Positions 8,126 through 64,000 of a stretch of DNA of 64,000 nucleotides are shown one piece after another. The stretch lies in the IMG/VR virus record IMGVR_UViG_2565956830_000005, positions 1 through 64,000 of that record; one strand, written 5' to 3'. The DNA is from a virus. Lineage: Duplodnaviria > Caudoviricetes. Every line of letters starts with the position of its first letter. Position 1 is the first letter of the stretch. The notes under the pieces are model-generated. The model was not told the DNA's origin. It was given only the letters and a program-made list of their open reading frames with translations, and did not search any database. The position numbers and the translations under genes were made by a program.

Positions 8126-8575
8126 TCAGTGAGCGAGTGCTGCTGCCCAGGCGAGGTGATAGGTGCGGGAGATCGTGCCGGTGACAACCAGCTGCTCGAA
8201 CGCGGGCTGTACGTACGGGCGCGGGGGTAGCTGGACGCCGCGGCCTGCGGTGCCGCCGAGCTCCTGGACGCGCCCGTACACGGCGGTTGGGCCGACCTCG
8301 GCGAGCCAGCGGCCGAAACCTGCGGGGACCGGTCCGACGACCTTGATGGAGCGGCGCAGGGTGCCGGTGATCAGGGAGGGCGGGTCACCGGGCGAGGAGG
8401 GTGTGGGTGTGCCCTTGGGGTGGCTCGAGGTCGACAGCATCTGTTTGATGGCGCCCTCGGCCAGGTGCGCGGCCTGCGCGGTCGCCACGCGTGTGGCGCG
8501 TTGCAGGTCCCGCTCGAGCGCTATGAGGGCGCCGTTGAGCTCGGAGAGCCCGGTGATCTGCACGCCTCCAGTCAC
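8126..8575 (-). CDS. HK97 gp10-like neck/tail-completion protein
   Basis: 'PSLITGTLRRSI...VYGRVQELGG...LPPRPYVQPAF' is the HK97-gp10 family pattern. Confidence 0.7.
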   Translation of the reverse strand: MTGGVQITGLSELNGALIALERDLQRATRVATAQAAHLAEGAIKQMLSTSSHPKGTPTPSSPGDPPSLITGTLRRSIKVVGPVPAGFGRWLAEVGPTAVYGRVQELGGTAGRGVQLPPRPYVQPAFEQLVVTGTISRTYHLAWAAALAH

Positions 8576-20560: not shown

Positions 20561-20573
20561 GTGGCGGAGCCTC

Positions 20574-22250: not shown

Positions 22251-22270
22251 GGGCAGCCGCCTCCCTCAGC

Positions 22271-23816: not shown

Positions 23817-26105
23817 CTACTCGTCGATGTCCCAGCGGGAGCCCGTCAGCCAGGACCGCCAGCGTGGAGGGCCCTGTCCGGCCTGCCAGCGGCTGTAGGG
23901 GCCGGTGGCAGTGATGAACAGGCGGCGGAGGTTGCCGCGTACCGCCGTGACCGTGCCGGTAAGGCCGGTGAGAGCGTGGAGGACGACCTCGAAGTAGCGG
24001 CCCGAGACGATGCCGGCCACGGCCAGGACTGCCGCCTGGTGGAGGACGGTGATGCTGCGGCGGACGCCGGGCACCCCGGTGAGGGCCGCAGCCCGGTGGA
24101 GGCTGGTGCTCCGGCGGGTGGCAGGCCCTGCGGTGAGTACGGCCTGGAGCAGGAGCCCCAGCGCGGCCCGCGCGGTCGCCGCCGCGGTGGTCGTTGCCGT
24201 GGCCCTCTGCCCGATGACCCGGCGCGCGTCCGCGGCCGTCGCTCCTACGACGGTGCGGGCGAGGGCTGCACGGCGGCTGGTGGCCGCGCCGAGGGCCAGG
24301 GCTGCCTCGAGGACGATGACGATCGCACCCTGGATGGTGGAGGCAGCGCTCGTGGCTGCTGTGGCTGCCGCGGCCTGGCCGATGAGCCTGCGGGTGGCGG
24401 CGGACACGGTGACCGCCACCGTCAAGAGGGTGTCGAGGCGGCGGCCGGCAGCAGCGGTGCACGCGCTGGTGGCAGCCGCATACAAGTGCGGGATGCGGGT
24501 GAGCTGGGCGCTGACGGCAGCCGTCGCGGCTTGGGCGATCCCGGTGGTGCGTCGTGCCGCGGCGGTTACGGATACGGGAGCCGAGCGCAGCAGACCGGTG
24601 GACCGGCTTGTTGCGGGGGCGGCGGTCGCGGTCCCGCCGATGGCGAGGAGACCGGTGCGGGCCGCCGCTCCCTGGAGTGCCAGCGTGGCCTGGCCGGACA
24701 AGGCGGTCGCGCGGGCCGCGGTCCCCGCCAGTACGGCGGTGGCAGCGACCCGGAGACTTGTGGCCCGGGTGAGGGCGCCGGTGGTGGCCACGCTCGCGGC
24801 CAGGATGACGCCCCGGGCGATCTGGCTGATCGTTGCCGCCGCGGTGGTGGTGACCACGGCGGCGAGCTGCTGCACGAACGCCTGCCCGCTCTCCATGGTG
24901 CTCGTGAGCGCGAGTGTCGCCACCCTCGCCAGAGCGGTACGCCGCACGGTGCCGCCCGCGGTGGCCGCGTCGGCGGCGATCGGGAGGCCCGCTGTGCGCC
25001 GGGTTGTGGTGGTGGTCGTCAGGAGCGCGGCCAGCATCGTGCCCAGGGTGCGGGCGACGCCTGCTGTCGGGGTCACGGTGGCGGCCTGGGTGGTCGCCAG
25101 GTTCCTGCGGCACGCGACTGCGAGCGTCACGACCGCGGCCCGGGCCAGGGCCGTCGCGCGGGCGACGCTCGTGGAGACGGTGACGGTCACACCGCGGAGC
25201 AGGCGGCCCGTGCGCACCAGGCTGGGGGCCGCGACGGTGGTGGCGGCCCGGGCGAGGACGGCCGTCGAGGCCCGGCCTGCAGCCGCAACCATGGTCACGG
25301 CGCGGGGCAGCCCGACAGCACGGGCCACACCGGCGGGGGTTGTGAGAACGGCCTGGAGGGCCAGGGCGACCAGGTGGCCCAGGGTGACGCCACCGGTGAG
25401 CGTCACCACGCCGGGGGCAGCAAGAGCGCCCCGGCGTTGTACGGCCGGTGCGGTGGTGAGGAGGGCCGGGAGGGCGCCGAGTCCGGTGGCGCGGCTCAGG
25501 CCGCTGAGGGTGGCGGTGGTGGCCGCGCGGGCCAGGGCCGCGGCGCGGCCGCAGCGCCCGGTGGTGGATGTGATGGCGGCCAGGACGACGGCCAGCAGAC
25601 GCCCGGCCGCGGCTGCGGGGGTGACGGTGGTGGTGCGGGCCAGCAGTGTGGTGCGGCCAGTGGATGCGGCGCAGGAGATGGCCACAGACCGCGTGAGATA
25701 CGCGGAGCGGGCCGCCCCGGGTGTGGAGGAGATGGCCGCTGCACGTGCGAGGGAACTGGCGCGGGCTGTCCCCGCGGTCAGGATGGCGGTCGCGGACCTC
25801 GTGAGGAAGCCGGTGCGGCCGGCGGCGGCCGTGGAGGTGGTGGTCGCGGCCCATAGCAGGCCCGTCGTGCGGCGGCTGCTGCCGGTGAGCGAAACGATCG
25901 CAGCGAGTACGGCGAGGACGATCAGCCGCGCGGACGCCGCGGTGCAGGTGAGCGTTGCCGTCCGGCCGAGCCCCGCGAGGCGCCCGGTCCCGGCGTTCAG
26001 GGCTGCCGTTGCGCCGGCGCTGATGTTGTAGACGGCAGGGCCCGTGGCCCGGACGGGCGGGATGGTGATCGGGGCGTGCGGCCTGCCGCGCCCGAAGCGT
26101 GACAT
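23817..26105 (-). CDS. long Ala/Thr/Arg repeat fibre-like protein
   Basis: 762 aa of imperfect ~18-20 aa repeats (e.g. RATALARAATT); in frame with neighbouring genes of the operon. Confidence 0.6.
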   Translation of the reverse strand: MSRFGRGRPHAPITIPPVRATGPAVYNISAGATAALNAGTGRLAGLGRTATLTCTAASARLIVLAVLAAIVSLTGSSRRTTGLLWAATTTSTAAAGRTGFLTRSATAILTAGTARASSLARAAAISSTPGAARSAYLTRSVAISCAASTGRTTLLARTTTVTPAAAAGRLLAVVLAAITSTTGRCGRAAALARAATTATLSGLSRATGLGALPALLTTAPAVQRRGALAAPGVVTLTGGVTLGHLVALALQAVLTTPAGVARAVGLPRAVTMVAAAGRASTAVLARAATTVAAPSLVRTGRLLRGVTVTVSTSVARATALARAAVVTLAVACRRNLATTQAATVTPTAGVARTLGTMLAALLTTTTTTRRTAGLPIAADAATAGGTVRRTALARVATLALTSTMESGQAFVQQLAAVVTTTAAATISQIARGVILAASVATTGALTRATSLRVAATAVLAGTAARATALSGQATLALQGAAARTGLLAIGGTATAAPATSRSTGLLRSAPVSVTAAARRTTGIAQAATAAVSAQLTRIPHLYAAATSACTAAAGRRLDTLLTVAVTVSAATRRLIGQAAAATAATSAASTIQGAIVIVLEAALALGAATSRRAALARTVVGATAADARRVIGQRATATTTAAATARAALGLLLQAVLTAGPATRRSTSLHRAAALTGVPGVRRSITVLHQAAVLAVAGIVSGRYFEVVLHALTGLTGTVTAVRGNLRRLFITATGPYSRWQAGQGPPRWRSWLTGSRWDIDE

Positions 26106-26108
26106 CGG

Positions 26109-39552: not shown

Positions 39553-39783
39553 TCAGGTCGCCTTGATGATCAAGGCGATGACGATGACTGCGATCACCAC
39601 GACGAGGATCCGGGCCTGTGCCAGGTCGAGCTGGTACGGCACCGGCTTGATGATCTCGCCGTAGGGGTGGTCGCCACCGTGCTGCTCATCGCGATGCTGC
39701 TGCCCGTGCCGCTCGGCTGCGACTTCGAGTGCGTACGGGCGCGAATCGGCCCGGCAGACGGGGCAGCTGTACAGGTGCGGCAT
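39553..39783 (-). CDS. small Zn-finger membrane protein
   Basis: CPVC...H...H plus C-terminal hydrophobic helix. Confidence 0.6.
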   Translation of the reverse strand: MPHLYSCPVCRADSRPYALEVAAERHGQQHRDEQHGGDHPYGEIIKPVPYQLDLAQARILVVVIAVIVIALIIKAT

Positions 39784-39813
39784 TGCGTCCTGCTCTCAGG
39801 GTCGGGTGCAGGT

Positions 39814-39881
39814 GGTAGATAGAGCACGGTAGACGACCGGTAGATATGGGCGGTAGATGTCGTTTGACCTGGGCTTCTACC
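39814..39881. repeat. GGTAGA direct repeats (x4) plus one inverted copy
   Basis: GGTAGA at 39814, 39828, 39839, 39852; TCTACC at 39876. Confidence 0.7.
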
Positions 39882-41043
39882 CCCTTCCAGGAGAGGCCGG
39901 AGCAGGGTTGGGAGGAGGGGTGTGACCGGGGGTGCGGGTGGGGCCTCTGCGGCCCGCGAGCCAGGCGCCCAGGAGCCGCTCGAACGGGACCCCCTTCCGG
40001 GGGCCGGCGGGGGCCTCCTCCGCCCGGCCGGGGGCCACTCCCGCCACCGGCCCGGGGGCCCCCTCGGGCGATGCCTCGGGGAGGCTCTCCGTGGGAGGCA
40101 CCGGGAGTACCCCGGGAGCGGGCTCTGGCGCGTGGTTCTGTGAGGCCTCGGCGAGCAGCTGGGCGACGCTGTTGGTCGCGGCGGTCAGCGGCGCCCCGAG
40201 AGCGGCCACGAGTTCGTCGGCGTGGACCCCATGGGTCGGTCCCCGGCCGCTCCCTCGGATCTGCATCGTCTTGACGGGGATACCGAGACGGGCGCAGTGC
40301 TCCCGCAGCGCCTCCACCGTCCACGCCTCGGGGACCGCCCCCTCATCGATGAGCGTCGCCAAGTGAACGCCCCTACGCCCCTCCGTCACGGCGGCAGAGA
40401 CCCGGGCGCAGACGAGGTGCAGCAGCCACAGGCCGGCCGCGCGGACCTGCGCCGTGTCCGGCGCGGCGGACCGCGCTTCCCCGGCCTGCGGCCCTGTTTC
40501 CCCACCGGCCGCCGGCTCCGTGCTGGCCGTGCGTCGGCCGTTCTTGTCGTACTGGGCGGTCAGCCACGCGGCCACGGCCCACCACACGGCCACCCACGGC
40601 AGCAGGGCGGCGAGATCCGGAGCCACGGCGTGCCAGCCGCGCTCGATGGGCCGGTGAGTGAAGCAGTAGACGACCCAGGCGGCGAACGCCACGCCGATCA
40701 ACTTGTTGGGTGCCAGCAGCGCCGCCGCAGTCCAGCTGTTCTTCTTGCCGCCCTTGGCCTTCGCGGTGGCCGGCTTCCCCTGCTCCCCGTCTGCCGGCTT
40801 CCCTCCTGGAACACCAGCCCCGGCCAGCATGTCTCCTTCCCCGACCGCGCTGCTCTTCGCCGGCTTGTTCTTCTCCTTGCCCTTCCCGCTGCTCTTGGCC
40901 GACGCGCGCCCGGGTAGATGCCGCGCGCCCTGGCACGCCCGCTGCACACCGCCCACGAGGCGGCGCGCCAGCAGGCCGCTACCACGCACTTCGTCCCCGA
41001 CGAGGACCACCAGGGCGCGCCAGACACTGATCGTGATCTTCAT
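39877..41043 (-). CDS. membrane protein with TraB-like C-terminal winged helix
   Basis: Two TM helices, then 'GVHLATL...WTVEALREHCARLGIPV...GVHADEL'; no Walker motifs. Confidence 0.55.
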   Translation of the reverse strand: MKITISVWRALVVLVGDEVRGSGLLARRLVGGVQRACQGARHLPGRASAKSSGKGKEKNKPAKSSAVGEGDMLAGAGVPGGKPADGEQGKPATAKAKGGKKNSWTAAALLAPNKLIGVAFAAWVVYCFTHRPIERGWHAVAPDLAALLPWVAVWWAVAAWLTAQYDKNGRRTASTEPAAGGETGPQAGEARSAAPDTAQVRAAGLWLLHLVCARVSAAVTEGRRGVHLATLIDEGAVPEAWTVEALREHCARLGIPVKTMQIRGSGRGPTHGVHADELVAALGAPLTAATNSVAQLLAEASQNHAPEPAPGVLPVPPTESLPEASPEGAPGPVAGVAPGRAEEAPAGPRKGVPFERLLGAWLAGRRGPTRTPGHTPPPNPAPASPGRG

Positions 41044-41495
41044 CAGTTGCCGGTCCAGTGAGAGATGGTGATCCGGAACGCGTTGAGGACGACTGCGCAG
41101 ACACCGCCGGCTTCCACCAGAGAGGCCGAGGCCATGAGCGCGAGGACCGCGGTGAGTCCCTTGCGGTTCCCCAGAGGGTGGAAGTAGGCGGTGAGTCCCA
41201 GGCAGGCGCCGAGGCCGGCCGGTCCGAGTGCTGGGATGCCGGCGCCGTCGAGGGCCGATGACGGAATCGTGCCGATCCCGGTGATGACATCGGCCCAGCT
41301 GTTCCCGGCGGCGAGGAACATCGTGCCGGTGAGGATGCCGAAGACCGCGATGCGTTCCTTGGTGTTGATCTTGACGTGGTTTCCCACGCCCAGCCACAAG
41401 AGCACGCCCATCACGGCAGCGATCCCGGACAGAGTCCAGGAACCGGCCCAGTTGCCCTTGGCCAGGTCAGCGGTGGGAGAAGCGAGGGTGTACAT
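41043..41495 (-). CDS. multi-pass membrane protein
   Basis: 150 aa, about 4 hydrophobic segments. Confidence 0.65.
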   Translation of the reverse strand: MYTLASPTADLAKGNWAGSWTLSGIAAVMGVLLWLGVGNHVKINTKERIAVFGILTGTMFLAAGNSWADVITGIGTIPSSALDGAGIPALGPAGLGACLGLTAYFHPLGNRKGLTAVLALMASASLVEAGGVCAVVLNAFRITISHWTGN

Positions 41496-41506
41496 CGTGG
41501 GGCCTT

Positions 41507-42634
41507 TCAGCGCGGGCCAGGGCCGTACCAGGCGACGGCGACAAGAGCGGATGCCAGGGGAACGCGGACGAACCAGCGCACGAGCGCCGGTGAGGCCTTG
41601 AAACGCCTGTCGATCAGCCAGTACAGGCCCCCGCAGATCGCGGCCGACGTCGACAGGAGCGCGATGCCGGAGGCGTCCAGGCCGGCATAGGCGCCGTACT
41701 GGTTGAGGATCTGCACCCCGTCCGGCGCCAGCCCGGGCGCCACGTACGCGGCGAACACTGAGGCCACGACGCGGCCGATGATCCCGCCGGGCAGATACCG
41801 GACGACGCCCTGCACACCGAGGACGCGCCAGGTGCCGTAGCCGCCGGCGCAGGCGAGGGTCAGGCCGATGGCGTCGGTGGCTTGGTGGTCGGCGGCCGGG
41901 AGGAACGCGCCGATCGCGTCGACCAGGCCGATGACGTACCCGAAAGCGCCGGCGGACGCGGTGAACAGGAGCGGCTTGACGTAGCTCCGGCTCGGGGTCG
42001 CCTGCAGTGTGGGTGTTTTGCCGGACGGTGTCTTCTTCCGGCCGCCCGGACGCCCGGGTTTGCTCGGTGCGGCCGGGCGGCTGCTGGGCACTTCGGCGTC
42101 CAGGTCGGGGATGTCGAGTTGCTCGTCGCAGTCCAGGCAGATCGACGCGACGTGCTCCCCGGTGGGCTGGGCGTGGACGGGCACGGTGCGCGCGTGTGGG
42201 CAGTCCGGCGGCTCTGTCTGTTCCGGCTGTGCAGGCCTGTTGAGCCTTTTCCGCCACCACTCGGGGAGCAGGTCGGCCCCTCGCAGACGCAGAGGATCCA
42301 CGTCGTCCTCCTCCTGGTCGTCATCGTCGTCCGGTATCTGAGCGGCGGTGGCTGCCGGTGCCGTAGGAGGTGCGGGCTGTGCGGGAGGCATGGGCGGTGC
42401 GGCAGGTGCGGTCGGTGCCCGGAAGCCGGGAGGGCTGCTGAGCATGGTGGGCGCGGGCGGTGTGGCAGGCGCGGGCGGCATCGGCGGGGCGCTGGGTGCC
42501 GGGGGTGTGCTGGGCGCAGGCGGTGGCTTGTTGGGCACCGTGGGTGTACTGGGTGCCGGCAGCGGCCGGTACCCCAGGAAGTCCATCCACCAGTCGTCCG
42601 GATCCGGTGCACCAGGCTGCGCGCTGCCACTCAC
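41507..42634 (-). CDS. Pro-rich membrane protein with Zn-ribbon
   Basis: PAP repeats, 'CPH...CLDC', several C-terminal TM helices. Confidence 0.6.
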   Translation of the reverse strand: MSGSAQPGAPDPDDWWMDFLGYRPLPAPSTPTVPNKPPPAPSTPPAPSAPPMPPAPATPPAPTMLSSPPGFRAPTAPAAPPMPPAQPAPPTAPAATAAQIPDDDDDQEEDDVDPLRLRGADLLPEWWRKRLNRPAQPEQTEPPDCPHARTVPVHAQPTGEHVASICLDCDEQLDIPDLDAEVPSSRPAAPSKPGRPGGRKKTPSGKTPTLQATPSRSYVKPLLFTASAGAFGYVIGLVDAIGAFLPAADHQATDAIGLTLACAGGYGTWRVLGVQGVVRYLPGGIIGRVVASVFAAYVAPGLAPDGVQILNQYGAYAGLDASGIALLSTSAAICGGLYWLIDRRFKASPALVRWFVRVPLASALVAVAWYGPGPR

Positions 42635-42813
42635 CACGGAACCCCCAAGCCCAGCCCGTAGGTGACCAGCAGGAGTTCGGCGACTGCGTACCCGGCGCAG
42701 TAGAGCAGGTCGCGGAGGTTGTGATTGCCTGCGGCCCGCGCGGCGTGGCCGATGGCGCAGGCGCCCAGGCCCGCTGCGAGCAGGAAGCCAAAGATTTGGG
42801 TGAAGGGCGGCAT
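42631..42813 (-). CDS. small membrane protein
   Basis: 60 aa, 2 TM; AAGGA RBS. Confidence 0.55.
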   Translation of the reverse strand: MPPFTQIFGFLLAAGLGACAIGHAARAAGNHNLRDLLYCAGYAVAELLLVTYGLGLGVPW

Positions 42814-42822
42814 GGCGTGTCC

Positions 42823-43050
42823 TTAGTGCAGGAGTGTGGCGGCGGTGGTGCAGGCTGCCGCGGTAGCGGAGAGGGTGGCTGCCGTACGGGCGCGTCCGCG
42901 CGCGCAGGCCAGCAGTGCGAGGGCGATGGCCGCACCGTCGGTGCATACGGCGGCCTGAGGAGTCGTCAGGCCGGCCAGTACGCACCAGTGCCAGCCCTCG
43001 CAGACCAGCGCCACGACGTTCTTGTCGGGCTCGGCCTCCGGCGGCGTCAT
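42823..43050 (-). CDS. small hydrophobic protein
   Basis: MTPPEAEPDK..., coupled. Confidence 0.45.
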   Translation of the reverse strand: MTPPEAEPDKNVVALVCEGWHWCVLAGLTTPQAAVCTDGAAIALALLACARGRARTAATLSATAAACTTAATLLH

Positions 43051-43175
43051 TGCGGGGTCCAGCAGACGACGGCAAGGACCATCGCGGCGATGACCGCGAC
43101 GAGGGCGTACTGCCGCAGCGCGCCGCTGCGCGTGTCCAGGGCGACGAGGCCCGCGGCCGGAATGACGTAGGACAT
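43047..43175 (-). CDS. 42-aa membrane peptide (not in the ORF track)
   Basis: MSYVIPAAGLVALDTRSGALRQYALVAVIAAMVLAVVCWTPQ; ATGA overlap with the next gene. Confidence 0.45.
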   Translation of the reverse strand: MSYVIPAAGLVALDTRSGALRQYALVAVIAAMVLAVVCWTPQ

Positions 43176-43224
43176 TCAGGGGCTTCCGGGTTGCGGGGCC
43201 GCGGTGCACGCCCCGGTGTGCAGG

Positions 43225-45222
43225 TCAGGTAGGGCATGGCACGGCCAGTTCGGGGCGCGGCAGCGTGTAGCCCCCGGCAATGAGGTCCGCGGCTTCCTTA
43301 CGGCGCTCGGAGGCGGTGGAGACGGACACTCCGAGAGCACCGGCGATGACGTCCAGCTGGATCGCGTCTGGGTCCCCGGCACCGTCGGTGAGGATCATGC
43401 GGGCGACCCTGCGGGCGTCCCGCTCGCGCGGGGTGAGGCGGGCGTGGTCTTCCATTTCGACCGCGAGAGCCTCGGCTTCGGCAACCCGGCGGCGCATTCC
43501 GACCGCGTCGAGCCGGACCGTCTCCGCGGCGGCCGCTTCCTCGGCCGCACGCCGTTCCGCGAGGGCCGCTTCCTCGCTGATCTTGGCCCTACGGCGGCGC
43601 GCTTCGGCGTTGGCCAGCTCCGCTTCGACCGCACGACGGTCCGTTTCGGCAGCAGCCGCTCGCGTTCCGGCCGCGCGCCTTTCCATTTCGGCCGCAGCCT
43701 CCAGACGCCGGCTGTTCTCGACCGATTGGTCGGCGGCCTGACGCTGTTCGGCGGCGAGCTGCTGCTCCGTTCCGAGGGCACGCTGGCGCGTTCCGAGGGC
43801 AGCGGCCCGCGCATCGGCAGCTTCCTTCTCCCGTCGGGCGGCCTCGACCTCGAGGCGCTCCGTTTCGGCCAGCGCTACGGCGGTCTCCTCGTCGGCCAGG
43901 GCCGCCATGTGGCGGTCGGCAGCAGCCGCGGCCTCGAGCTGCTCGGCTTGCTGCGCCTTGGTCGCGGCGGCGAGCCGGTCCTCGGCGGCCTGGAGCTGGG
44001 CTGCGGCGGCGGTCGCCGACTCGAGAGCCTCCGCCTCCTGGACAGCGACGCGTTCCTCGGCTTCGGCCACAGCGGTGGCCTTGGCGTACGCGGAGCGGGC
44101 AGCGACCGAAGCGACCGACTTCCGGGCATCGAGCCCTTCCTCGGCCTCGGCAACCTCGGCCTGCTTCGCGAGGAGCAGGATCCTGGCGTCCGCGGTCCGG
44201 ATCTGGGCGGCGAGCGCCTCCTGCTCCTGGCGCTCCTCCTGCTCCCGCTCGCGCTGCTGCTCGGCGGCGCGGGCCTGCTCGGGGATGGCGAGGGCCTCGT
44301 CGACGGTCAGCCCGTACGGCGCCATGATCATGGGGAGGCGGGCCTCCATCGGGGCGCTCTTCCAGCCCTTGGGGTACTGCTTCCCCTTGGGGTAGATGCG
44401 GTCGAGTGCAGCCCGGTAGATGAGCTGGTCACGGCGCCTGTCTACCGCCTCGTCGTACGACCGGATCCCCAGGAGGACCATCCGCCGGTGGAGGCTGAAG
44501 GAGCCGGCCGGATCGAGGATCCAGCGCTCGAGAGGGATGCCGTCGCGGCGGGTGCCGGCGGCGACGTCCTCGGCGCGGGTGACCTGGATGATGACCCGCC
44601 GGGCAGCCTCGACCGCGGTCACGAACATGACCGGGATGACCGCGTGCATCCCGACACCGACAGGGTCCGCGCTCAGCGGGCGGCCACCGGACGCGGCGTT
44701 GAAGACGATCGTCGCGACCGTGAAGCCGTGCGCTGCGAGGCGGAGGATGGGCCAGCGGATCCGGCGGTGGGTGAGGACGAGGTCCAGGGCGTAGAGGACG
44801 ACGATGCCGACGTCGACACCGACCGGGAAGACCTGCGCGAACTCGCCAAAATGGTGCGCCTCGCCCAGCTTCACGAGGGACCGGTAGGAGCCGGTGAAGC
44901 CGATCCCGGCGAGGACCAGGCCGCCGATGACCGCGAACACGTTGAGGCCCCTGCGGGCTGCTCCCGAAACAGCGTCCGACGTACCCGGAACGCCGGGGGC
45001 CGTCGTCGGAACGGCACCCGGCGCCTCCGGAACGGCCACCTCTTTCCCACGCTCGACGCGCGGTTGGAAGCGCGCGACGGGGACCTTGGGGCGGCCGTGG
45101 CCGGGCGCGGCCGGAACGGATTCCGGCGCGCTCGGAACGCTGCGGTGCGGGGTCGGAACGGCCGCCTGCGTCCTCGGAACAGAGCCGCCGCGCCAGAGTG
45201 TGAGGCGTGTGAGGAGAGTCAT
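43225..45222 (-). CDS. DUF2637/SpdB2-like membrane coiled-coil protein with C-terminal HTH
   Basis: 'GFTGSYRSL...FPVGVDVGI...TIVFNAA...HAVIPVMF...EAAR' DUF2637 pattern; long coiled coil; 'IAGALGVSVSTASERR' HTH. Confidence 0.8.
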   Translation of the reverse strand: MTLLTRLTLWRGGSVPRTQAAVPTPHRSVPSAPESVPAAPGHGRPKVPVARFQPRVERGKEVAVPEAPGAVPTTAPGVPGTSDAVSGAARRGLNVFAVIGGLVLAGIGFTGSYRSLVKLGEAHHFGEFAQVFPVGVDVGIVVLYALDLVLTHRRIRWPILRLAAHGFTVATIVFNAASGGRPLSADPVGVGMHAVIPVMFVTAVEAARRVIIQVTRAEDVAAGTRRDGIPLERWILDPAGSFSLHRRMVLLGIRSYDEAVDRRRDQLIYRAALDRIYPKGKQYPKGWKSAPMEARLPMIMAPYGLTVDEALAIPEQARAAEQQREREQEERQEQEALAAQIRTADARILLLAKQAEVAEAEEGLDARKSVASVAARSAYAKATAVAEAEERVAVQEAEALESATAAAAQLQAAEDRLAAATKAQQAEQLEAAAAADRHMAALADEETAVALAETERLEVEAARREKEAADARAAALGTRQRALGTEQQLAAEQRQAADQSVENSRRLEAAAEMERRAAGTRAAAAETDRRAVEAELANAEARRRRAKISEEAALAERRAAEEAAAAETVRLDAVGMRRRVAEAEALAVEMEDHARLTPRERDARRVARMILTDGAGDPDAIQLDVIAGALGVSVSTASERRKEAADLIAGGYTLPRPELAVPCPT
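44986..45180 (+). repeat. CGGAAC array phased at 21 bp
   Basis: Copies at 44986, 45007, 45028, 45112, 45133, 45154, 45175. Confidence 0.8.
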
Positions 45223-48923: not shown

Positions 48924-50297
48924 TCAGCGGCGTAGGACGGCGAGTTGGAGCGTGTCCTCGGTCCGGGGGTCGAGCAGCTGCGCGGTGGGCAGCGCAGCCG
49001 TGGCGTCGGACTCGGGCACTGGTACGGGCTCCAGGCGCGCCGTGTCGGCGGTGTGCTCGCCACGGGCGGTGCCGGTCCCGGTGGCGCGGCGGGTGCCGGT
49101 GCCGCGGAGGCGGATGCGGATCATGGACAGCGGGATCACGACGAAGGCCGTGGCGCCTCCAGCCCACAGGAGCGGGTTGCCGAGGAGGCCGCCCGCGAGG
49201 CTGACGAGGGTTCCCGCGGCCGCGCCGACGAGCGCCAGGCCCCGGCGGCGTTCCCGCGTCATGGGGCTGATGACGGTCTTGCGCCCGCTGCGGCCGGTCC
49301 ACGCCGTGTAGTGGCGTCCCAGCAGCCACTCGCGGAGCATCGACCGCGTGTACAGGTACTTGTTGTAGAAGTTCAGCAGCGTGTACGGCACGAAGCCGAG
49401 CGCGGCTTTCTTCCAGCCGACGACGCGGGAGACCAGGTACATGGTCAGCGCGGTGTGGCCGGCGAACCAGTAGCCCATGTACCGGAACATCGACAGGTGC
49501 TGCCAGGTCGCCAGGTTGTAGACCACGACGACGGCCCACCACCACAACGTGACCAGGTCGAACATCGCGGTACCGACAGTGAGGAGGGAGCGCCAGTTGA
49601 ACATCAGGCGCCGGTAGCGGGCGACGTTCTGGAAGTAGCCGGCCGCCCACCGGGGCATCTGCGCCGTGTACTCGGCCCAGGTCTCCGGGTCGATCGTGAG
49701 CGTCAGGGCATCCGCGGTGTACCAGGCCTTGTAGCCGCCTTCGTGGAGCTTCCAGGTGATGTCCATGTCGGCGCTGATGAGCCCGTTGGGAAACCCGCCG
49801 ACCGCACGGACGACGTCCGTGCGGAAGGCGTACGAGGCGCCGGTGAGGACCTGGAGGCGGCCGACCTGGCGCTGGCACAGCCGCCACCACTGGCTGCCGA
49901 GGCTGTACGCGAACCGCCGCGCTTCGATGAAGAAGCCGGTGTCCTGCATGGGAAGGATCGACGAGCAGGTGGCGTCGTAGCCGCGCTCGATGTCGGCGAC
50001 CATCAGCGGGATGCAGTCGGGCTCCGGCTTCGAATCGCCGTCGAACCCCACGATCACATCCGCCGTGATGTACGGCAGCGCATGGTTCTGGTTCGCCGCC
50101 TTGTCCGCGAACCTCGTCTCCAAAACCAGCGACGCACCCGCCTCACGGGCAACCTGCGCGGTGCGGTCCGTGCAGGAGTCCGCGACCACGATCAGCTGGG
50201 CGACTGGGTAGGGCTGGTCCAGGCATGCCCGGACCAGCTCCCCGATCGTCGCCTCTTCCTGGTGGGCGGGAATGAGGACGGCGATCGTCAGACTCAG
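48924..50297 (-). CDS. processive GT2 membrane glycosyltransferase (polysaccharide synthase-like)
   Basis: 'VLIPAHQE', DSCTD, DGD, 'SADMDIT', QMPRW (QxxRW) and C-terminal TM helices; probable CTG start overlapping the upstream TGA (ORF open to 50441). Confidence 0.85.
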   Translation of the reverse strand: MSLTIAVLIPAHQEEATIGELVRACLDQPYPVAQLIVVADSCTDRTAQVAREAGASLVLETRFADKAANQNHALPYITADVIVGFDGDSKPEPDCIPLMVADIERGYDATCSSILPMQDTGFFIEARRFAYSLGSQWWRLCQRQVGRLQVLTGASYAFRTDVVRAVGGFPNGLISADMDITWKLHEGGYKAWYTADALTLTIDPETWAEYTAQMPRWAAGYFQNVARYRRLMFNWRSLLTVGTAMFDLVTLWWWAVVVVYNLATWQHLSMFRYMGYWFAGHTALTMYLVSRVVGWKKAALGFVPYTLLNFYNKYLYTRSMLREWLLGRHYTAWTGRSGRKTVISPMTRERRRGLALVGAAAGTLVSLAGGLLGNPLLWAGGATAFVVIPLSMIRIRLRGTGTRRATGTGTARGEHTADTARLEPVPVPESDATAALPTAQLLDPRTEDTLQLAVLRR

Positions 50298-50410
50298 CCC
50301 CGGCCTCTCCTTCCGAGGAAGCGCAGGGCGCTCCCGGTGGCCCCCATCGCCAGGGACACCCCGGTCAGGAGCATCGCTCCGAACCCGGTGTGAGCCAGTC
50401 CGTTGTACAT
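50294..50410 (-). CDS. 38-aa LAXTG sortase-signal peptide (not in the ORF track)
   Basis: AGGAGG RBS; MYNG-LAHTG-FGAMLLTGVSLAMGATGSALRFL-GRRGRG. Confidence 0.75.
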   Translation of the reverse strand: MYNGLAHTGFGAMLLTGVSLAMGATGSALRFLGRRGRG

Positions 50411-50437
50411 GTGAGTTCCTCCTATGAGTCACGGCCG

Positions 50438-51700
50438 TCACAGCCGCTCGATGTGCGAGGCGACAGGCATGACGCCCCGCGTGTCCAGCACGAAGTTCGC
50501 CTGGTCGGCGACGCGCTGGAGGTCAAAGGCCGAGTGCGCGGTGAGCAGCACGACCGCGTCGAAGTGCCCGCAGTTCAAACCGCTGGCGACGGCGAGCGGG
50601 ATCTCGCAGAGAACGTCGAGGTCTTCCTTGGGGAAGAACGGGTCAACGGCGACGACGTAGGCGCCCGCCTCCCGCAGGAGCTCGACGACCTCGGCAGCCG
50701 GCGACTGCCGCATGTCAGCGGTGTCCGCCTTGTACGCCTGCCCCAGGGCGAGGATCCGCGCCCCCTTCAACGCCTGCCCGCGCACGTTCAACGCGTCCTG
50801 GAGGCGCCGGGCCACGTACTCGGGCTGCGACTCGTTGATGTCCTGCGCAAGCTCGACAAGGCGAAACGGCTGCCCGTGCGCAGTGCGCAGGTGGTGCGCC
50901 AGGTAGACCGGGTCGACCGGCAGGCAGTGCCCACCTACCCCCGGGCCGGGCACGAACTGCATGAACCCGAACGGCTTCGTGCCAGCGAGCCCGAGAGTGC
51001 GCCAGACGTCCACACCCAACGTGTGCGCCATGCGCGACAGTTCGTTGACGAGGGCGATGTTGACGTGCCGGAAGGTGTTCTCGAAAACCTTCGCCAGCTC
51101 CGCCTCCTCCAGCGACCCGGCGACGACGATGTTCTGCGTGATCCCGGTGTAGAACTTGTCGACCTGGTCCAGGCAGCCAGCGGTGAGCCCGGAGACGATC
51201 TTCGGGGTGTTCGTGAACCGCCACTCCTCGTTGCCCGGGTCGATGCGCTCCGGGCTGAACCCGACGTGGAAGTCCTCCCCGGCCTTCCAGCCGGTGGCCT
51301 CCTCCAGGATCGGGACCAGAACGTCGCGGGTCGTACCCGGGTGGGTGGTCGATTCCAGGATCACGGTGGCGTCGGCCTTGAGACGCGCGCCGAGAACCTC
51401 GGCGGCCTCCCGGACGTAACTCAGGTCGGGCTGCCGATCCTTGAGCGGCGTCGGCACCGCGATGACCGCGACGTCGAAGTCCTCGATCCGGGTCTCACTG
51501 CGCGTCGGCTGGTACCGCCCCGACTCCAGAGCAGCCGCGAGAGTGTCGTCGGAGACGTCCTCGACGTACGAGGACCCGAAGTGCAGCCGCTCATACCGGT
51601 GTTGGTCCGGCTCGAAGCCGACAACCTGATGGCCGGCCTCAACGGCAGCCATGGCCAGGGGAAGGCCGACATAGCCCTGCCCCATGACAACGAGTTTCAC
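50438..51700 (-). CDS. UDP-N-acetylhexosamine 6-dehydrogenase (nucleotide sugar dehydrogenase)
   Basis: GQGYVG Rossmann motif, 'VPTP', 'LESTTHPGTT', 'SPERIDPG', 'GPGVGGHCLPVDP', 'YKADTADMRQSP'. Confidence 0.93.
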   Translation of the reverse strand: MKLVVMGQGYVGLPLAMAAVEAGHQVVGFEPDQHRYERLHFGSSYVEDVSDDTLAAALESGRYQPTRSETRIEDFDVAVIAVPTPLKDRQPDLSYVREAAEVLGARLKADATVILESTTHPGTTRDVLVPILEEATGWKAGEDFHVGFSPERIDPGNEEWRFTNTPKIVSGLTAGCLDQVDKFYTGITQNIVVAGSLEEAELAKVFENTFRHVNIALVNELSRMAHTLGVDVWRTLGLAGTKPFGFMQFVPGPGVGGHCLPVDPVYLAHHLRTAHGQPFRLVELAQDINESQPEYVARRLQDALNVRGQALKGARILALGQAYKADTADMRQSPAAEVVELLREAGAYVVAVDPFFPKEDLDVLCEIPLAVASGLNCGHFDAVVLLTAHSAFDLQRVADQANFVLDTRGVMPVASHIERL

Positions 51701-51796
51701 GTGAAGGATTCCCTTCCAGGGACGTGCATTCAGAAGTGGCTTGGAGCCGGGCCCGCGGCTGGGGGAGGCACACGGGCCCGGCGTATTTGGGGGCGG

Positions 51797-57146: not shown

Positions 57147-57947
57147 TCACTGTTCCTGGGGGTCTGGGGTGGTGGGGCTCAACGTCGGTAGCGGCGGGAC
57201 TACTTGGGCGAGCCAGCTGGTGGGTTCTGTCGTGAAGTGGGGTGCTGGGCTGCTCTCCCACCACGACCTGGTGGCGAGGACCGTGTTTTCGGTGCTGGTG
57301 CGTTTGTCGGTGTACGTCGTCTCCCGCTCGCCGAGGTGGCGCACGGTGACGCGTCCGCGTTTGCAGCCGTCGGGGTAGTCGCTCCAGTTCACGCCTTTCT
57401 CGGACCACAGCAGTTCCTGCATGCCGGCGCTGTTCACGCCGTGGAGGCGTTGGTGGGAGAAGTGGGCCTGGGCGGCCATGCTGATGCTGTTGCTGACGGC
57501 GTCGCGTTGCCGTCCGATGAAGTAGTTCGCGACCTCGACCGGGTCGTTGATGGTGAAGACGCGGGCGTCGAAGAGTCCTCGTCGGCCGGGGCGGCGTTCG
57601 TTGAGGACGGCGGTCGCGAGGGATGCGGCGATGCTGAGCTGTTTCGCGATGACGCCGCCGAACCAGGGCTGCGTGGTGGGGGTGTCGAAGTCGGTGATCA
57701 GGATGCTGATTTCGTCGGACTGGCTGTAAGCGAAGCGGGCGCCGGCGATCTCGGTGCAGAGGGCTTCGGCGACGGCGTCCATGTCGGCCATGAACGCCTC
57801 GTCGAACGGCCGCTGCGCGCCGGCCAGGTAGGAGTGGAAGGCGCGGCCGTCGACGCGGAGTACGGCGTGTGTGCGGCGGGGCAGCACAGTCCGATAGGGG
57901 GCCTCGTACTGCTTCATGCGCTCGGCGAGCGGGGCGTTGTCGCTCAT
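57147..57947 (-). CDS. thg1: tRNA(His) guanylyltransferase Thg1-like protein
   Basis: 'RMKQYE...LRVDGRAFHSY...AYSQSDEISIL...FGG...K..SIAAS...FDARVF...YF..RQRDA..NSI'. Confidence 0.92.
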   Translation of the reverse strand: MSDNAPLAERMKQYEAPYRTVLPRRTHAVLRVDGRAFHSYLAGAQRPFDEAFMADMDAVAEALCTEIAGARFAYSQSDEISILITDFDTPTTQPWFGGVIAKQLSIAASLATAVLNERRPGRRGLFDARVFTINDPVEVANYFIGRQRDAVSNSISMAAQAHFSHQRLHGVNSAGMQELLWSEKGVNWSDYPDGCKRGRVTVRHLGERETTYTDKRTSTENTVLATRSWWESSPAPHFTTEPTSWLAQVVPPLPTLSPTTPDPQEQ

Positions 57948-57952
57948 CGTGG

Positions 57953-58171
57953 TCAGTCCCAGGTGATGTCGTTGTTGGCGAAGGCCTTCACGATGGCGGG
58001 ATCGTCGAGGAAGAGCTGGAGGGAGTCGAGTTCGGTGTCCCAGTCCTCCTCTTTGAGGTTGGCGATGAGCGGGGTGAGCGTCTCTTCTTTCAGCTCGTCG
58101 GAGGCGCCGGCCTTGATGAGGGCGCGGGCGACCGGGTTGAAGAATGTGAGGCCTGCGCTGCCGAATCCCAT
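57953..58171 (-). CDS. small acidic hypothetical protein
   Basis: CAGGAG RBS; 'LIANLKEEDWDT' motif. Confidence 0.55.
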   Translation of the reverse strand: MGFGSAGLTFFNPVARALIKAGASDELKEETLTPLIANLKEEDWDTELDSLQLFLDDPAIVKAFANNDITWD

Positions 58172-58422
58172 AGCTGTTGTCTCCTGTGTTCGATGATCTG
58201 TGCGGCTTCGTCGAGGCGTGTGGCGTGGCGGTTGCGGCGCCAGTGGCGGGTGCGGATGAACTTCACGTCGGCCAGGCCGCGGAGGTCTTCCGGGGTACTC
58301 GCGTACAGGACTTCCGGGTCGTGGGGTGAGAGGCCGCTGTCGTAGCACCAGGCGTTGAAGCGTTCCCGGGAGGAGGCGAGGACGACCAGGAGGGGATGAC
58401 CCGTGGCAAGGGGAGGCGTCAC
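58090..58422 (-). CDS. hypothetical protein
   Basis: GTGA coupling; overlaps the downstream gene. Confidence 0.4.
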   Translation of the reverse strand: MTPPLATGHPLLVVLASSRERFNAWCYDSGLSPHDPEVLYASTPEDLRGLADVKFIRTRHWRRNRHATRLDEAAQIIEHRRQQLWDSAAQASHSSTRSPAPSSRPAPPTS

Positions 58423-62380: not shown

Positions 62381-62790
62381 TGCTGACCTCCGTCGTCGAT
62401 CGTGCGGGCTGTAGCGAGCGCGGCTTCGTCGCGGTGGCGAGCCTTCGCCTGGAGGTGGTCGTAGTTGACCGCGCGGGCCAGGACGAGAGCGGGTTCGTCG
62501 GCGCTCACTTCGGTGCCGTCGAGGGCATCGGCGGTCTGGTCGAGGAGCTTGGCGAGGGCGCGGCCGACGCCGGGGTGCATGGCGCAGATGTACTGGGCAT
62601 CGGTCGGCTCGTGGTGGGGGTCGGTGGTGGTGCTGGCGACGCGGTACGGGACGCCGATGTTGCTGATGGTCTGCGGGTAGTGGCGTGCCTGTTCGTTGAC
62701 GATGTACCAGGGGCCGCGGTTGTCGCCGAGCGCCTGGACGAGGTCGTCCAGCTTGGCTGCCGCGGCACGGATCTCTTCGGTAGGTGTCAT
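62377..62790 (-). CDS. hypothetical protein (paralogue of the ligase C-terminal domain)
   Basis: 'TPTEEIRAAAAKL...GPW...YICAMHPGVGRALAKLL'. Confidence 0.55.
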   Translation of the reverse strand: MTPTEEIRAAAAKLDDLVQALGDNRGPWYIVNEQARHYPQTISNIGVPYRVASTTTDPHHEPTDAQYICAMHPGVGRALAKLLDQTADALDGTEVSADEPALVLARAVNYDHLQAKARHRDEAALATARTIDDGGQQ

Positions 62791-63707: not shown

Positions 63708-64000
63708 CAGCTGGTGCCTTCTGTGGGTGGGATGAGGGTGAGGTCGGCGCCCCACATGTCGCGTGGGCTGGGGTGGTACTCGATGTGCGCGATCTCGTAC
63801 CGGCTGCGTGGCCCGCCGTAGTCGATGAGGATGTGGTCGCCGCGTTCGATGCCGGGGCCCCAGCCGGAGACGCGGAGTTGCTGGAGGTCGTCGGGTTCGT
63901 GGTGGACGACGTAGTCGCGGCCCCAGCCGAGGTGATCGCGCGTGTAGTCGTGGACGCGCGGCTTCCGCCCTGGTGCGGGAGAGGGCTCTGGCGGGGCGGT
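63707..64000 (-). CDS. partial hypothetical protein (runs off the window; possible frameshift near 63750)
   Basis: Open frame '...HDYTRDHLGWGRDY...GWGPGIERGDHILI...YHPSPRDMW'. Confidence 0.4.
   Translation of the reverse strand, partial: TAPPEPSPAPGRKPRVHDYTRDHLGWGRDYVVHHEPDDLQQLRVSGWGPGIERGDHILIDYGGPRSRYEIAHIEYHPSPRDMWGADLTLIPPTEGTS

What the first reader, a model, noticed from the sequence alone, without database searches (positions are those of the whole stretch)
39553..45222. Plasmid spread/transfer-like membrane module in a phage, with no TraB ATPase
Seen: eight tightly linked genes, nearly all membrane proteins: a DUF2637/SpdB2-like coiled-coil HTH protein, small hydrophobic peptides, a Pro-rich TM protein, a 4-TM protein, and a TM protein ending in a winged-helix-like domain resembling a TraB C-terminus but without Walker motifs. 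Known: spd and traB genes of Streptomyces conjugative plasmids and AICEs mediate DNA transfer and intramycelial spread. Inference: this phage may tether its DNA to the membrane and move it across hyphal cross-walls without lysis, or hijack or block TraB of co-resident elements.
Basis: partly seen in the sequence, partly recalled or inferred. Interest (0 to 1): 0.72.

Follow-up and report, generated by a model that had tools for sequence, protein, structure and literature searches.

The report
Motor-less plasmid-spread cassette in Streptomyces prophage
A Streptomyces prophage carries a conserved block of eight membrane-protein genes, related to the genes that plasmids use to spread DNA through hyphae but without the DNA pump, and its lead gene holds repeated DNA words that probably anchor the phage DNA to the cell membrane.

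Summary
Window 39553-45222 (minus strand) carries eight tightly packed genes inside an integrated tailed prophage. All eight products have hydrophobic segments; none of the seven flanking products does.

- **g1** is a DUF2637 protein: four membrane helices, a helical stalk of about 280 residues and a C-terminal HTH.
- **g7** has two membrane helices and a winged-helix domain. That domain shows no detectable relation to the two TraB/Tra proteins compared or to any TraB-length protein.
- **No FtsK/TraB gene** was found on this contig, in phage VWB, or in 4 of 4 near-complete related virus records.
- **The block is not an AICE remnant.** g1-g5-g6-g7-g8 keeps its order in 7 distinct related prophage loci. 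It also sits on large linear plasmids behind a GntR regulator, likewise without TraB.
- **New here:** g1 holds 10 of the window's 18 CGGAACG words, in two oppositely oriented groups. Six are spaced at 21 bp or multiples of it and are written with the rare Val codon GTT. Related genes carry other words that change with the g1 HTH tail.

Most likely g1 docks phage DNA at the membrane. SpdB2 homologues in actinophages, and the DNA-spreading idea, were published in 2015. This scan noted similar cassettes and arrays on other DNA.

Verdict: new variant of a known kind; function untested.

The parts
43225..45222 (-). g1: 665-aa DUF2637 (SpdB2-like) membrane protein. Disordered N-terminus 1-86, membrane helices 87-222, helical stalk 307-593, C-terminal HTH 598-649.
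   Evidence: Pfam PF10935 E 4.8e-32. phrog_32569 E 2.3e-114. AlphaFold model. The tail family was found in 36 proteins, and 36 of 36 carry PF10935.
44965..45181 (.). 5' word array inside g1. Exact CGGAACG at 44986, 45007, 45028, 45112, 45133, 45154, with one-mismatch copies at 44965 and 45175. Spacing is 21 bp or a multiple of it. On the coding strand each exact copy reads GTT CCG (Val-Pro).
   Evidence: GTT is 32 of 474 Val codons in 14 other genes of the window, yet all 8 phased Val codons here use it (7 GTT CCG and 1 GTT TCG).
43553..43795 (.). 3' word array inside g1, in the opposite orientation. CGTTCCG on the + strand at 43553, 43663, 43768, 43789, plus one-mismatch copies. It lies in the part that encodes the stalk.
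   Evidence: Resampling synonymous codons of g1 gives a mean of 0.51 copies and a maximum of 4 in 2000 trials, against 10 observed.
43047..43175 (-). g2: 42-aa peptide with one hydrophobic segment.
   Evidence: tblastn match in L022 and L023.
42823..43050 (-). g3: 75-aa Cys/Ala-rich small protein with one hydrophobic segment. Its start overlaps the g2 stop by 4 nt.
   Evidence: 57-62% identical copies in L021-L023.
42631..42813 (-). g4: 60-aa peptide with two hydrophobic segments. This is the weakest gene call of the eight.
   Evidence: Third-position GC 0.86. No tblastn match in the related loci.
41507..42637 (-). g5: 376-aa protein. Pro-rich N-terminus, an acidic patch, a Cys/His cluster (CPH...CxxC), a basic linker and four C-terminal hydrophobic segments.
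   Evidence: 34-57% identical copies in prophage loci, and 32% over the membrane part on plasmid locus L027. No Pfam, PHROG or NCBIfam family.
41043..41495 (-). g6: 150-aa polytopic membrane protein. Its stop overlaps the g7 start by 1 nt.
   Evidence: A 16-sequence family alignment has invariant A63, D69, P78, G91, G130. phrog_29318 E 4.4e-4, weak.
39877..41043 (-). g7: 388-aa protein. N-terminal helix, Lys-rich linker, two membrane helices (about 112-174), winged-helix domain 197-303, and a disordered Pro-rich tail ending in PGRG in 7 of the 9 aligned sequences.
   Evidence: No Walker A. No similarity to the TraB/Tra proteins compared.
40129..40467 (-). Region encoding the g7 winged-helix domain (residues 193-305).
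   Evidence: pLDDT about 84. VIA-align Z 6.8 with PadR (3.6 A over 94 residues), and all 50 listed rows score Z 5.0 or more. The same domain is in VWB gp26: hhalign 96.6%, E 4.8e-10.
39553..39783 (-). g8: 76-aa tail-anchored protein with an N-terminal CPxC...H-rich motif and a C-terminal membrane helix.
   Evidence: 46-78% identical copies in related loci, and 42% on plasmid locus L027. phrog_32136 E 2.9e-4, weak.

Best explanation
The block is a native, conserved, pump-less version of the Streptomyces plasmid 'spread' (Spd) machinery, carried by a family of temperate tailed phages.

**Proposed mechanism.**
- g1 sits in the membrane through its DUF2637 domain.
- A helical stalk of about 280 residues holds a C-terminal HTH out into the cytoplasm.
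- The HTH binds two oppositely oriented arrays of the word CGGAACG written into g1's own coding sequence. Phage DNA is thereby docked at the membrane.
- g2-g8 are made from the same tightly packed gene string and form the membrane partners. g7 adds a second, sequence-conserved winged-helix domain.

**Proposed purpose.** By analogy with plasmid Spd proteins, the complex holds and hands over phage DNA at membranes or cross-walls, so that the DNA is distributed through the compartmented mycelium. The energy would come from elsewhere, such as host or co-resident translocases, or growth and replication.

**Shown here.** Gene content, homologies, conservation, absence of a detectable TraB, the winged-helix fold class, the DNA-level word arrays, and their change with the g1 tail.

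**Inferred.** That the g1 HTH reads the words, that g1-g8 form one complex, and any role in spreading DNA.
For: **Homology and plasmid link.**
- g1 is a DUF2637 protein with relatives on 328 plasmid records.
- In pFP3 and the plasmid-phage pFP4 the closest named relatives lie two genes upstream of the FtsK/SpoIIIE (TraB) gene. Identity is 48-50% in the domain and 57-59% in the tail.
- SpdB2 of pSVH1 is reported as a four-helix oligomeric membrane protein that binds dsDNA, forms pores and is needed for intramycelial spreading (PMC4447253; passages read).

**Conservation.**
- The order g1-g5-g6-g7-g8 is kept in L021-L026 and L030.
- It is kept on 9 plasmid-type loci with a GntR gene upstream.
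- The isolated phage VWB has gp24 (g1, 46% identity) and gp26 (the g7 winged helix, hhalign 96.6%).

**Word arrays.**
- 10 of the window's 18 CGGAACG copies lie in g1 (binomial P 3e-11).
- Synonymous resampling gives a mean of 0.51 and a maximum of 4 in 2000 trials.
- Spacing is 21 bp or a multiple, with the rare GTT codon at every phased Val.
- The 5' array lies in the part of g1 that the model leaves disordered, residues 1-86.

**Word follows the g1 tail.**
- Closely related tails go with CGGAACG (window, L022-L024), CGAAACG (L025, L026) and CGAAGCG/CCGAAGC (pFP3, pFP4).
- A second tail family goes with CGGGTGC (VWB), CGAGTGC (L057) and CGGGTCC (L053).
- The g7 winged helix is nearly invariant across the same loci. 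pFP3 and pFP4 have arrays but no g7.

**Membrane character.** All eight products have hydrophobic segments.
Against: - No experiment bears on function, and no RNA data exist for this stretch.
- The word arrays look just like clt sites, which are direct 8-bp repeats read by TraB (PMC4447253).
- Published SpdB2 binds dsDNA non-specifically (as quoted).
- The words were chosen after the fact as the top word of each gene, and the related loci are kin, so the word-to-tail match rests on few independent events.
- pSCL3-type plasmid cassettes have only weak arrays, 4-7 copies.
- Without an ATPase the cassette cannot itself pump DNA.
- I could not compare g1 directly with pSVH1 SpdB2, because its sequence is in no collection I could reach. 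pIJ101 SpdB does not match DUF2637.
- The HTH call rests on a predicted three-helix bundle and Foldseek rows at E 2-4 only.
- The winged-helix Z scores (6.8 and below) are in the range the tool calls middling.
Confidence: 0.45

Rival explanations
1. The arrays in g1 are a clt-like site read in trans by the TraB of a co-resident plasmid or AICE. The phage genome, or the excised prophage, is then pumped between hyphae by a borrowed motor, with the cassette supplying the Spd-type helpers.
For: - clt regions are direct 8-bp repeats recognised by the matching TraB (PMC4447253; passage read). The arrays here are direct 7-8-bp repeats.
- The host genome holds several TraB-sized FtsK-family genes, in open frames of 489-744 aa on C133, C128, C201 and C187.
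- In pFP3 and pFP4 the only array near traB lies in the DUF2637 gene.
Against: - The word tracks the g1 tail in elements with no TraB of their own (VWB, the window, L022-L026).
- The arrays I found within 5 kb of four resident TraB-like genes use other words: CCGCCAC, TGACGCA, CCGAAAC, and none at C133.
- The only other dense CGGAACG cluster in the genome (C153) gave no match to my query panel, which included TraB proteins.
Confidence: 0.15
2. The cassette is a membrane organiser for phage DNA replication, partition or packaging inside one compartment. It would be a membrane anchor plus coiled coil plus DNA-binding domain, as I recall for phage phi29 protein p16.7. It would have no role in moving DNA between compartments.
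For: - g1's build is a membrane domain, a long stalk and an HTH.
- The arrays are phased at two helical turns, like partition or iteron sites.
- The module sits in a long co-directional gene string between early genes and the terminase, with no promoter-like or terminator-like site above chance.
- The large linear plasmids that carry it show no TraB.
Against: - The phi29 comparison is recalled and was not tested here.
- The closest relatives of g1 lie in plasmid tra/spd regions under GntR (Kor-type) control rather than next to replication or ParA genes.
- pFP3 and pFP4 have a separate ParA with its own word array.
Confidence: 0.2
3. The cassette is a prophage-borne exclusion or 'kil'-type function. 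Its membrane proteins would block incoming phage or plasmid DNA, or TraB of other elements, or slow host growth.
For: - All products are membrane proteins.
- Plasmid copies sit behind a divergent GntR repressor, as the toxic tra/spd genes do. [quoted passage not shown]
Against: - In the phage there is no own promoter-like site or adjacent regulator. The block lies inside the lytic-direction gene string, not beside the integrase.
- A pure exclusion role does not explain DNA-level arrays in g1 that match its own tail.
Confidence: 0.12
4. The block is a decaying remnant of an AICE or plasmid that landed in the prophage and has no function.
For: It has plasmid-type relatives and lacks TraB.
Against: - All ORFs are intact with coding-type GC3.
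- Order and orientation are kept, at 31-78% protein identity, in 7 distinct related prophage loci with the same phage flanks.
- The cassette is in a virus record with direct terminal repeats rated 100% complete, and partly in phage VWB.
Confidence: 0.02

Closest known systems
pSVH1 (Streptomyces venezuelae) spdB3-spd79-spdB2-orf108-traB operon under TraR (PMC4447253)
   Same: - A string of small, mostly membrane proteins with translational coupling.
- A key four-helix membrane protein that binds DNA and oligomerises.
- Direct short repeats serve as the DNA handle.
- That paper already notes putative SpdB2 homologues on the actinophages phiC31 and VWB.
   Different: - No TraB motor and no adjacent GntR repressor in the phage.
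- The repeats lie inside the spdB2-like gene.
Plasmid-phage pFP4 and plasmid pFP3 (Streptomyces sp. FR1 / F2): GntR - WhiB - DUF2637 - two small genes - FtsK/SpoIIIE
   Same: - They hold the best named relatives of g1, in both the DUF2637 domain and the HTH tail.
- pFP4 also has tape measure, capsid, portal and terminase genes.
- The DUF2637 gene carries an in-gene array of a one-letter variant word, CGAAGCG/CCGAAGC.
   Different: - pFP3 and pFP4 keep TraB and lack g5-g8.
- The window's phage has g5-g8 at the place where they have two small genes plus TraB.
Streptomyces phage VWB gp24-gp25-gp26
   Same: - An isolated temperate phage with a DUF2637 protein (gp24, 46% identical over 204 residues) upstream of the terminase.
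- gp26 carries the g7-type winged helix (hhalign 96.6%).
- An array of 16-17 copies of CGGGTGC runs through gp24 and gp25.
- No FtsK-family match.
   Different: - A different HTH tail family and a different word.
- gp25 shows no sequence similarity to g5.
- No g6 counterpart was found.
GntR - (WhiB) - DUF2637 - g5 - g6 - g7 - g8 cassette of large linear Streptomyces plasmids (pSCL3 of S. clavuligerus, NZ_CP108096.1 and others)
   Same: - The same five gene families in the same order.
- No FtsK/SpoIIIE match on pSCL3 or on two plasmid contigs of 296 kb and 432 kb.
   Different: - Plasmid setting with a divergent GntR repressor.
- 29-43% identity to the window's proteins for the NZ_CP108096.1 copy; for pSCL3 only g7 matched (34%).
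- pSCL3-type g1 has weak arrays and no terminal HTH of the window's type.
- All genes are annotated as hypothetical.
TraB-clt recognition (FtsK-like pump with a C-terminal DNA recognition domain reading 8-bp direct repeats)
   Same: A membrane-anchored protein with a C-terminal DNA-binding domain, together with arrays of short direct repeats on the element's own DNA.
   Different: - No ATPase.
- Neither the g1 nor the g7 family shows profile similarity to the TraB/Tra proteins compared.

Membership tests
DUF2637 (Pfam PF10935) | Match to the family HMM above the gathering score | tested here: met
   g1 residues 96-257, E 4.8e-32, 111.5 bits against 22.8. The genome search gave 116.1 bits.
SpdB2-type spread protein (pSVH1) | Integral membrane protein with four membrane helices | tested here: met
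   The AlphaFold model has helices 87-110, 132-152, 158-177 and 187-222. The Kyte-Doolittle scan scored three segments. The four-helix description of SpdB2 comes from PMC4447253.
SpdB2-type spread protein (pSVH1) | Direct sequence similarity to pSVH1 SpdB2 | not tested
   The pSVH1 sequence was in no collection I could reach. The link rests on the paper's statement that VWB carries a putative SpdB2 homologue and on g1's similarity to VWB gp24. pIJ101 SpdB gave no Pfam match.
SpdB2-type spread protein (pSVH1) | Encoded in a tra/spd operon with TraB under a GntR (TraR) repressor | tested here: not met
   No PF01580 match on the contig. No GntR gene was found in the Pfam scans of the four genes on either side of the module. 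The plasmid relatives do have GntR.
SpdB2-type spread protein (pSVH1) | Oligomerises, forms pores, binds dsDNA and peptidoglycan, and is needed for pock formation | not testable with these tools
   These are biochemical and genetic properties reported in PMC4447253.
TraB / FtsK-SpoIIIE translocase (asked of g7 and of the whole element) | FtsK/SpoIIIE ATPase domain with a Walker A motif | tested here: not met
   No Walker A in any of the eight products. No Pfam match for g7 at E up to 0.1. No PF01580 match on C144.
TraB / FtsK-SpoIIIE translocase (asked of g7 and of the whole element) | C-terminal winged-helix clt-recognition domain homologous to that of TraB | tested here: inconclusive
   g7 197-303 has a winged-helix fold class. 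hhalign gives probability 0.3% against pFP3 TraB and 0.4% against pIJ101 Tra. No FtsK gamma domain appears among the 50 listed rows, which does not exclude it.
clt (cis-acting locus of transfer) | Array of short direct repeats on the element's own DNA | tested here: met
   Six exact and two near-exact CGGAACG copies at 21 bp or multiples, plus four inverted copies, all inside g1.
clt (cis-acting locus of transfer) | Recognised by the element's own TraB and required in cis for transfer | not testable with these tools
   No TraB is present. Mating and binding assays are needed.
Streptomyces plasmid-phage (pFP4 / pZL12 type) | One replicon with virion genes plus plasmid transfer genes, including TraB | tested here: not met
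   Virion genes are present but no TraB. The element is integrated, with a tyrosine integrase at C144:66119-66622. Plasmid replication or ParA genes were not searched for.

The most novel reading that the evidence does not exclude
g1 with g5-g8 is a self-sufficient, TraB-independent apparatus for moving double-stranded DNA through Streptomyces mycelium. In this reading g5-g8 functionally replace the two small genes plus TraB that follow the DUF2637 gene in pFP3 and pFP4. The same machine then serves temperate phages (spread of phage DNA without virions) and large linear plasmids that have no FtsK-type gene at all. The g1 tail reads its own in-gene 'address' array.
Probability: 0.12. Interest if true: 0.85.

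Novelty: new variant of a known kind. Interest (0 to 1): 0.55.

Why it matters
How temperate phages deal with a multicellular, compartmented host such as Streptomyces is largely unknown. The idea that phage SpdB2 homologues spread phage DNA has stood untested since 2015.

This work turns it into a concrete object:
- a five-family cassette shared by phages and TraB-less linear plasmids;
- a predicted protein-DNA pair, the g1 HTH tail and CGGAACG arrays, with natural one-letter variants that can be swapped;
- a tractable model, VWB gp24-gp26 in S. venezuelae.

If g1 does read an address written into its own gene by codon choice, that is also a clear case of regulatory or structural DNA signals overlaid on coding sequence. 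It may further explain how large linear plasmids without TraB are kept or moved in mycelium.

Tried and rejected
**Similarity searches that found nothing.**
- TraB likeness: hhalign of the g7 family against pFP3 TraB (0.3%) and pIJ101 Tra (0.4%), and of the g1 family against pFP3 TraB (0.4%).
- DUF3631 lead from the protein atlas structure rows: hhalign of the g7 family against four DUF3631 domains of this genome gave 0.3%.
- Pfam, PHROGs and NCBIfam gave nothing for g2-g5 and g7, and only weak PHROG hits for g6 and g8.
- A profile search of PDB sequences with the g7 family gave two irrelevant rows at E 0.43.
- Foldseek gave no match at E 0.001 or better for either model.
- The atlas search for g5 gave only unnamed clusters at 0.82-0.86.
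- g5 against VWB gp25 showed no similarity.
- g7 by tblastn against 50,697 phage records gave no match.

**Searches that failed or were limited.**
- The full-length g7 search of 400 genus genomes found 0, with a stricter first look. The domain-only search found 12 of 400.
- No RNA holder was listed for the stretch, and the DNA holders held only small shares.
- The promoter and terminator scan gave nothing above chance.
- The pSVH1 and pWTY27 records and the phiC31 genome paper were not held.

**Literature.** A search for the recalled pSVH1 TraB recognition word returned only unrelated papers, so the likeness of the L053 word to it stays a recollection. On SpdB2, DUF2637 and phage DNA spreading, searches found only PMC4447253 making the phage link. 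No held paper describes in-gene arrays in DUF2637 genes or the g5-g8 cassette.

Full report
**Setting.** The window is positions 47-64046 of a 262,669-bp contig from an 11.76-Mb, 202-contig genome. Related loci and named relatives are all Streptomyces. Nearly all confident genes in the window lie on the minus strand.

They include a tape-measure protein (4062-8384), a portal-NUDIX-MuF reading frame (17198-21127) and a large terminase (20577-22265). A tyrosine integrase lies just beyond the window at contig 66119-66622. The element is therefore an integrated tailed prophage of at least 67 kb, cut at its tail end by the contig start. The finding lies between early genes of unknown function and a DNA methylase and the late genes.

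**The observation.** Eight co-directional ORFs fill 39553-45222, with coding-type third-position GC. Junctions run from a 7-nt overlap to a 93-nt gap, and three are overlaps. No promoter-like or terminator-like site above chance lies inside or at the edges.

All eight products have at least one hydrophobic segment. None of the seven flanking products has one, and none of the fifteen has a Walker A motif.

- **g1** is a DUF2637 protein (E 4.8e-32) and matches phrog_32569 at E 2.3e-114.
- **Its model** (36-sequence alignment, mean pLDDT 74) shows a disordered N-terminus (1-86), four membrane helices (87-222) and a small helical domain. Two very long helices follow (307-373 and 382-593), then a three-helix bundle (598-649, pLDDT about 90).
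- **HTH class.** Foldseek gives only weak local matches to HTH domains such as DeoR, NarL/RcsB, Lrp and KorA at E 2-4. The HTH class is plausible but not proven.
- **g7** has a confident domain at 197-303 (pLDDT about 84). Its best structural neighbours are all winged-helix proteins. VIA-align gives Z 6.8 for PadR down to 5.0 at row 50, and the Foldseek rows are all winged-helix proteins at E 0.2 or weaker. These scores are middling, so I claim the fold class only.

**Is g7 a TraB C-terminus?** No evidence supports this.
- The profile of nine close relatives, searched against 1.84 billion representatives, found 90 proteins. All are 94-413 aa, against 648-700 aa for the TraB/Tra proteins seen here.
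- Profile comparisons with pFP3 TraB and pIJ101 Tra give probabilities of 0.3% and 0.4%.
- A structural lead to DUF3631 also failed at 0.3%.

g7 belongs to an unnamed actinobacterial family built from two membrane helices plus a winged helix.

**Is there really no TraB?** PF01580 gives 17 matches in the genome and none on this contig. It gives none in phage VWB. It gives none in four IMG/VR virus records that carry relatives of the cassette. All four are rated at least 90% complete, and one is an 86,390-bp record with direct terminal repeats rated 100% complete. One caveat applies: plasmid TraBs score low with this model (38-40 bits for pFP3 and pFP4), so a very divergent motor could be missed.

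**Conservation.** g7 is rare.
- Nine proteins turned up in the 5.8-billion-protein search.
- The full-length query matched 0 of 400 other sampled genomes of the genus. The winged-helix domain alone matched 12 of 400.
- I collected 26 loci and scored them with a panel of module, TraB, terminase, GntR and WhiB proteins.
- Seven distinct prophage-type loci keep g5-g6-g7-g8 in order, flanked by the same phage genes (up4, dn1, dn3, methylase). These are L021-L026 and L030; L031 is the same sequence as L024. Five of them have a clear g1, and L021 and L030 have only faint g1 matches.
- Nine plasmid-type loci have GntR (often with WhiB) followed by g1-g5-(g6)-g7-(g8). Among them are pSCL3 of S. clavuligerus and NZ_CP108096.1.
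- pSCL3 and two plasmid contigs of 296 kb and 432 kb give no PF01580 match. NZ_CP108096.1 has one sub-threshold match (19 bits) about 50 kb away.
- None of the 26 loci has a TraB-panel hit within 10 kb.

The isolated phage VWB has gp24 (g1-like, 46% over 204 residues) and gp26, whose C-terminus belongs to the g7 winged-helix family (96.6%, E 4.8e-10). The block is therefore a conserved cassette shared by temperate phages and large linear plasmids, and not a decaying insert.

**Plasmid link.** g1 has tblastn relatives on 328 plasmid records, 315 of them Streptomyces. The best named ones are in pFP3 and pFP4, where the order is GntR, WhiB, DUF2637, two small genes, then FtsK/SpoIIIE.

pFP4 also encodes tape measure, capsid, portal and terminase. 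It is cited as a plasmid-phage that conjugates and also makes infective particles (Chen et al. 2012, as cited in PMC4170104; passage read). In the window's phage, g2-g8 occupy the place that two small genes plus TraB hold in pFP3 and pFP4.

- The window's total count of CGGAACG (18) is what shuffles give (19.5). Yet 10 of the 18 lie in the 2-kb g1 gene (binomial P 3e-11).
- Six lie at 44986-45154, spaced 21 bp or multiples of it, with near-copies at 44965 and 45175. Four lie in the opposite orientation at 43553-43789.
- In the 5' array each copy is read as GTT CCG (Val-Pro) every seventh codon. GTT is 32 of 474 Val codons in 14 other genes, but 8 of 8 at the phased positions. The one unphased Val-Pro uses GTC CCC.
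- With the protein held fixed, resampling synonymous codons gives a mean of 0.51 copies and a maximum of 4 in 2000 trials. Permuting g1's own codons gives a mean of 0.98 and a maximum of 5.
- The 5' array lies in the segment that the model leaves disordered. That fits a stretch whose sequence is set by DNA needs.

**The word changes with the g1 tail.**
- Tails of one family (ARM.LT...LGVS.STAS..R..AA.LIA.GY) go with CGGAACG (window, L022-L024), CGAAACG (L025, L026) and CGAAGCG/CCGAAGC (pFP3, pFP4).
- Tails of a second family (...IGQ.KA...I.AL) go with CGGGTGC (VWB, 16-17 copies), CGAGTGC (L057) and CGGGTCC (L053, 23-24 copies).
- Unrelated tails go with CGTGAAC (L027, 20 copies), CTCGCGA (L049) and CGGTCAC (a paralogue on C111).
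- For 12 such genes, 0 of 500 synonymous permutations reach the observed count. The words were picked after the fact, and many of the loci are kin.
- The first tail family was found in 36 proteins, and all 36 carry DUF2637.
- The g7 winged helix is almost invariant across loci with different words. pFP3 and pFP4 have arrays without g7. The g1 tail is therefore the better candidate reader.
- pSCL3-type genes have only weak arrays, and most DUF2637 paralogues of this genome have none.

**What it most likely does.** I read g1 as a membrane-anchored docking protein for the phage's own DNA, with g2-g8 as its membrane partners. The whole would be a pump-less relative of the plasmid spread apparatus.

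For pSVH1, spdB3, spd79 and spdB2 are needed for intramycelial spreading. SpdB2 is a four-helix, oligomeric, pore-forming, dsDNA-binding membrane protein that contacts TraB (PMC4447253; passages read). What the phage gains is untested. It could be distribution of phage DNA through compartments, a membrane site for replication or packaging, or use of a borrowed TraB.

The clt-in-trans rival is real, because clt sites are also direct 8-bp repeats. Against it, the arrays near four resident TraB-like genes use other words.

**What is known and what is new.** Thoma et al. [quoted passage not shown] Plasmid-phages with TraB are published. Earlier notes of this scan describe TraB-bearing prophages, a motor-less cassette in another phage, and word arrays in a DUF2637 gene of another phage. 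By sequence, none overlaps g7.

My searches found no paper on the g5-g8 cassette, on its presence on TraB-less linear plasmids, or on in-gene arrays in DUF2637 genes.

**Limits.** There are no expression data and no complex prediction. No direct comparison with pSVH1 SpdB2 was possible. The gene call for g4 is weak. The wider survey rests on 26 loci found through g7.

Noticed in passing
window 17198-21127 (-): One stop-free frame holds a phage portal domain, a NUDIX hydrolase domain and a Mu F-like head-morphogenesis domain in series. A NUDIX domain between portal and MuF is unusual.
   Followed up: no
window 48927-51796 (-): A family-2 glycosyltransferase and a UDP-glucose/GDP-mannose dehydrogenase sit inside the prophage, on the phage strand. 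They may act in lysogenic conversion or surface modification.
   Followed up: no
window 57147-58262 (-) and 62790-63998 (-): A Thg1-like tRNA-His guanylyltransferase and an RNA ligase 1-like protein lie in the early region of the prophage. This suggests a tRNA repair or counter-defence function.
   Followed up: no
own genome, contig C153:232261-233339: Nine direct copies of the same word, CGGAACG, lie within 1.1 kb near a contig end. All have one orientation and irregular spacing, and the region matched nothing in my query panel. Unexplained.
   Followed up: partly
own genome, contigs C70 and C119: The genome holds 15 DUF2637 matches. On C70 and C119 a short DUF2637 gene lies directly beside a DUF3631 gene, so this pairing recurs in other integrated elements.
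   Followed up: no
L053 (G307:C30, VWB-like prophage): Its DUF2637 gene holds 23-24 copies of CGGACCC/CGGGTCC. The word resembles what I recall, without a source in hand, as the pSVH1 TraB recognition sequence. A literature check failed.
   Followed up: partly
L019 (pFP4) 4200-5400 and 1500-2550; L018 (pFP3) 2551-3600: pFP4 has 12 copies of AGTTACC near its primase/DUF927 genes. Both plasmids have 7 copies of CAGCTAG beside ParA. These look like iterons and a partition site, distinct from the array in the DUF2637 gene.
   Followed up: no
window 39877-40130 (-), g7 C-terminus: The disordered Pro-rich tail of g7 ends in a PGRG motif that 7 of the 9 aligned family members keep at their very end. 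It may be a docking peptide.
   Followed up: no
window 23817-26108, both strands: This stretch has 76% GC and long open frames on both strands with high third-position GC. The minus-strand product has no convincing Pfam match.
   Followed up: no
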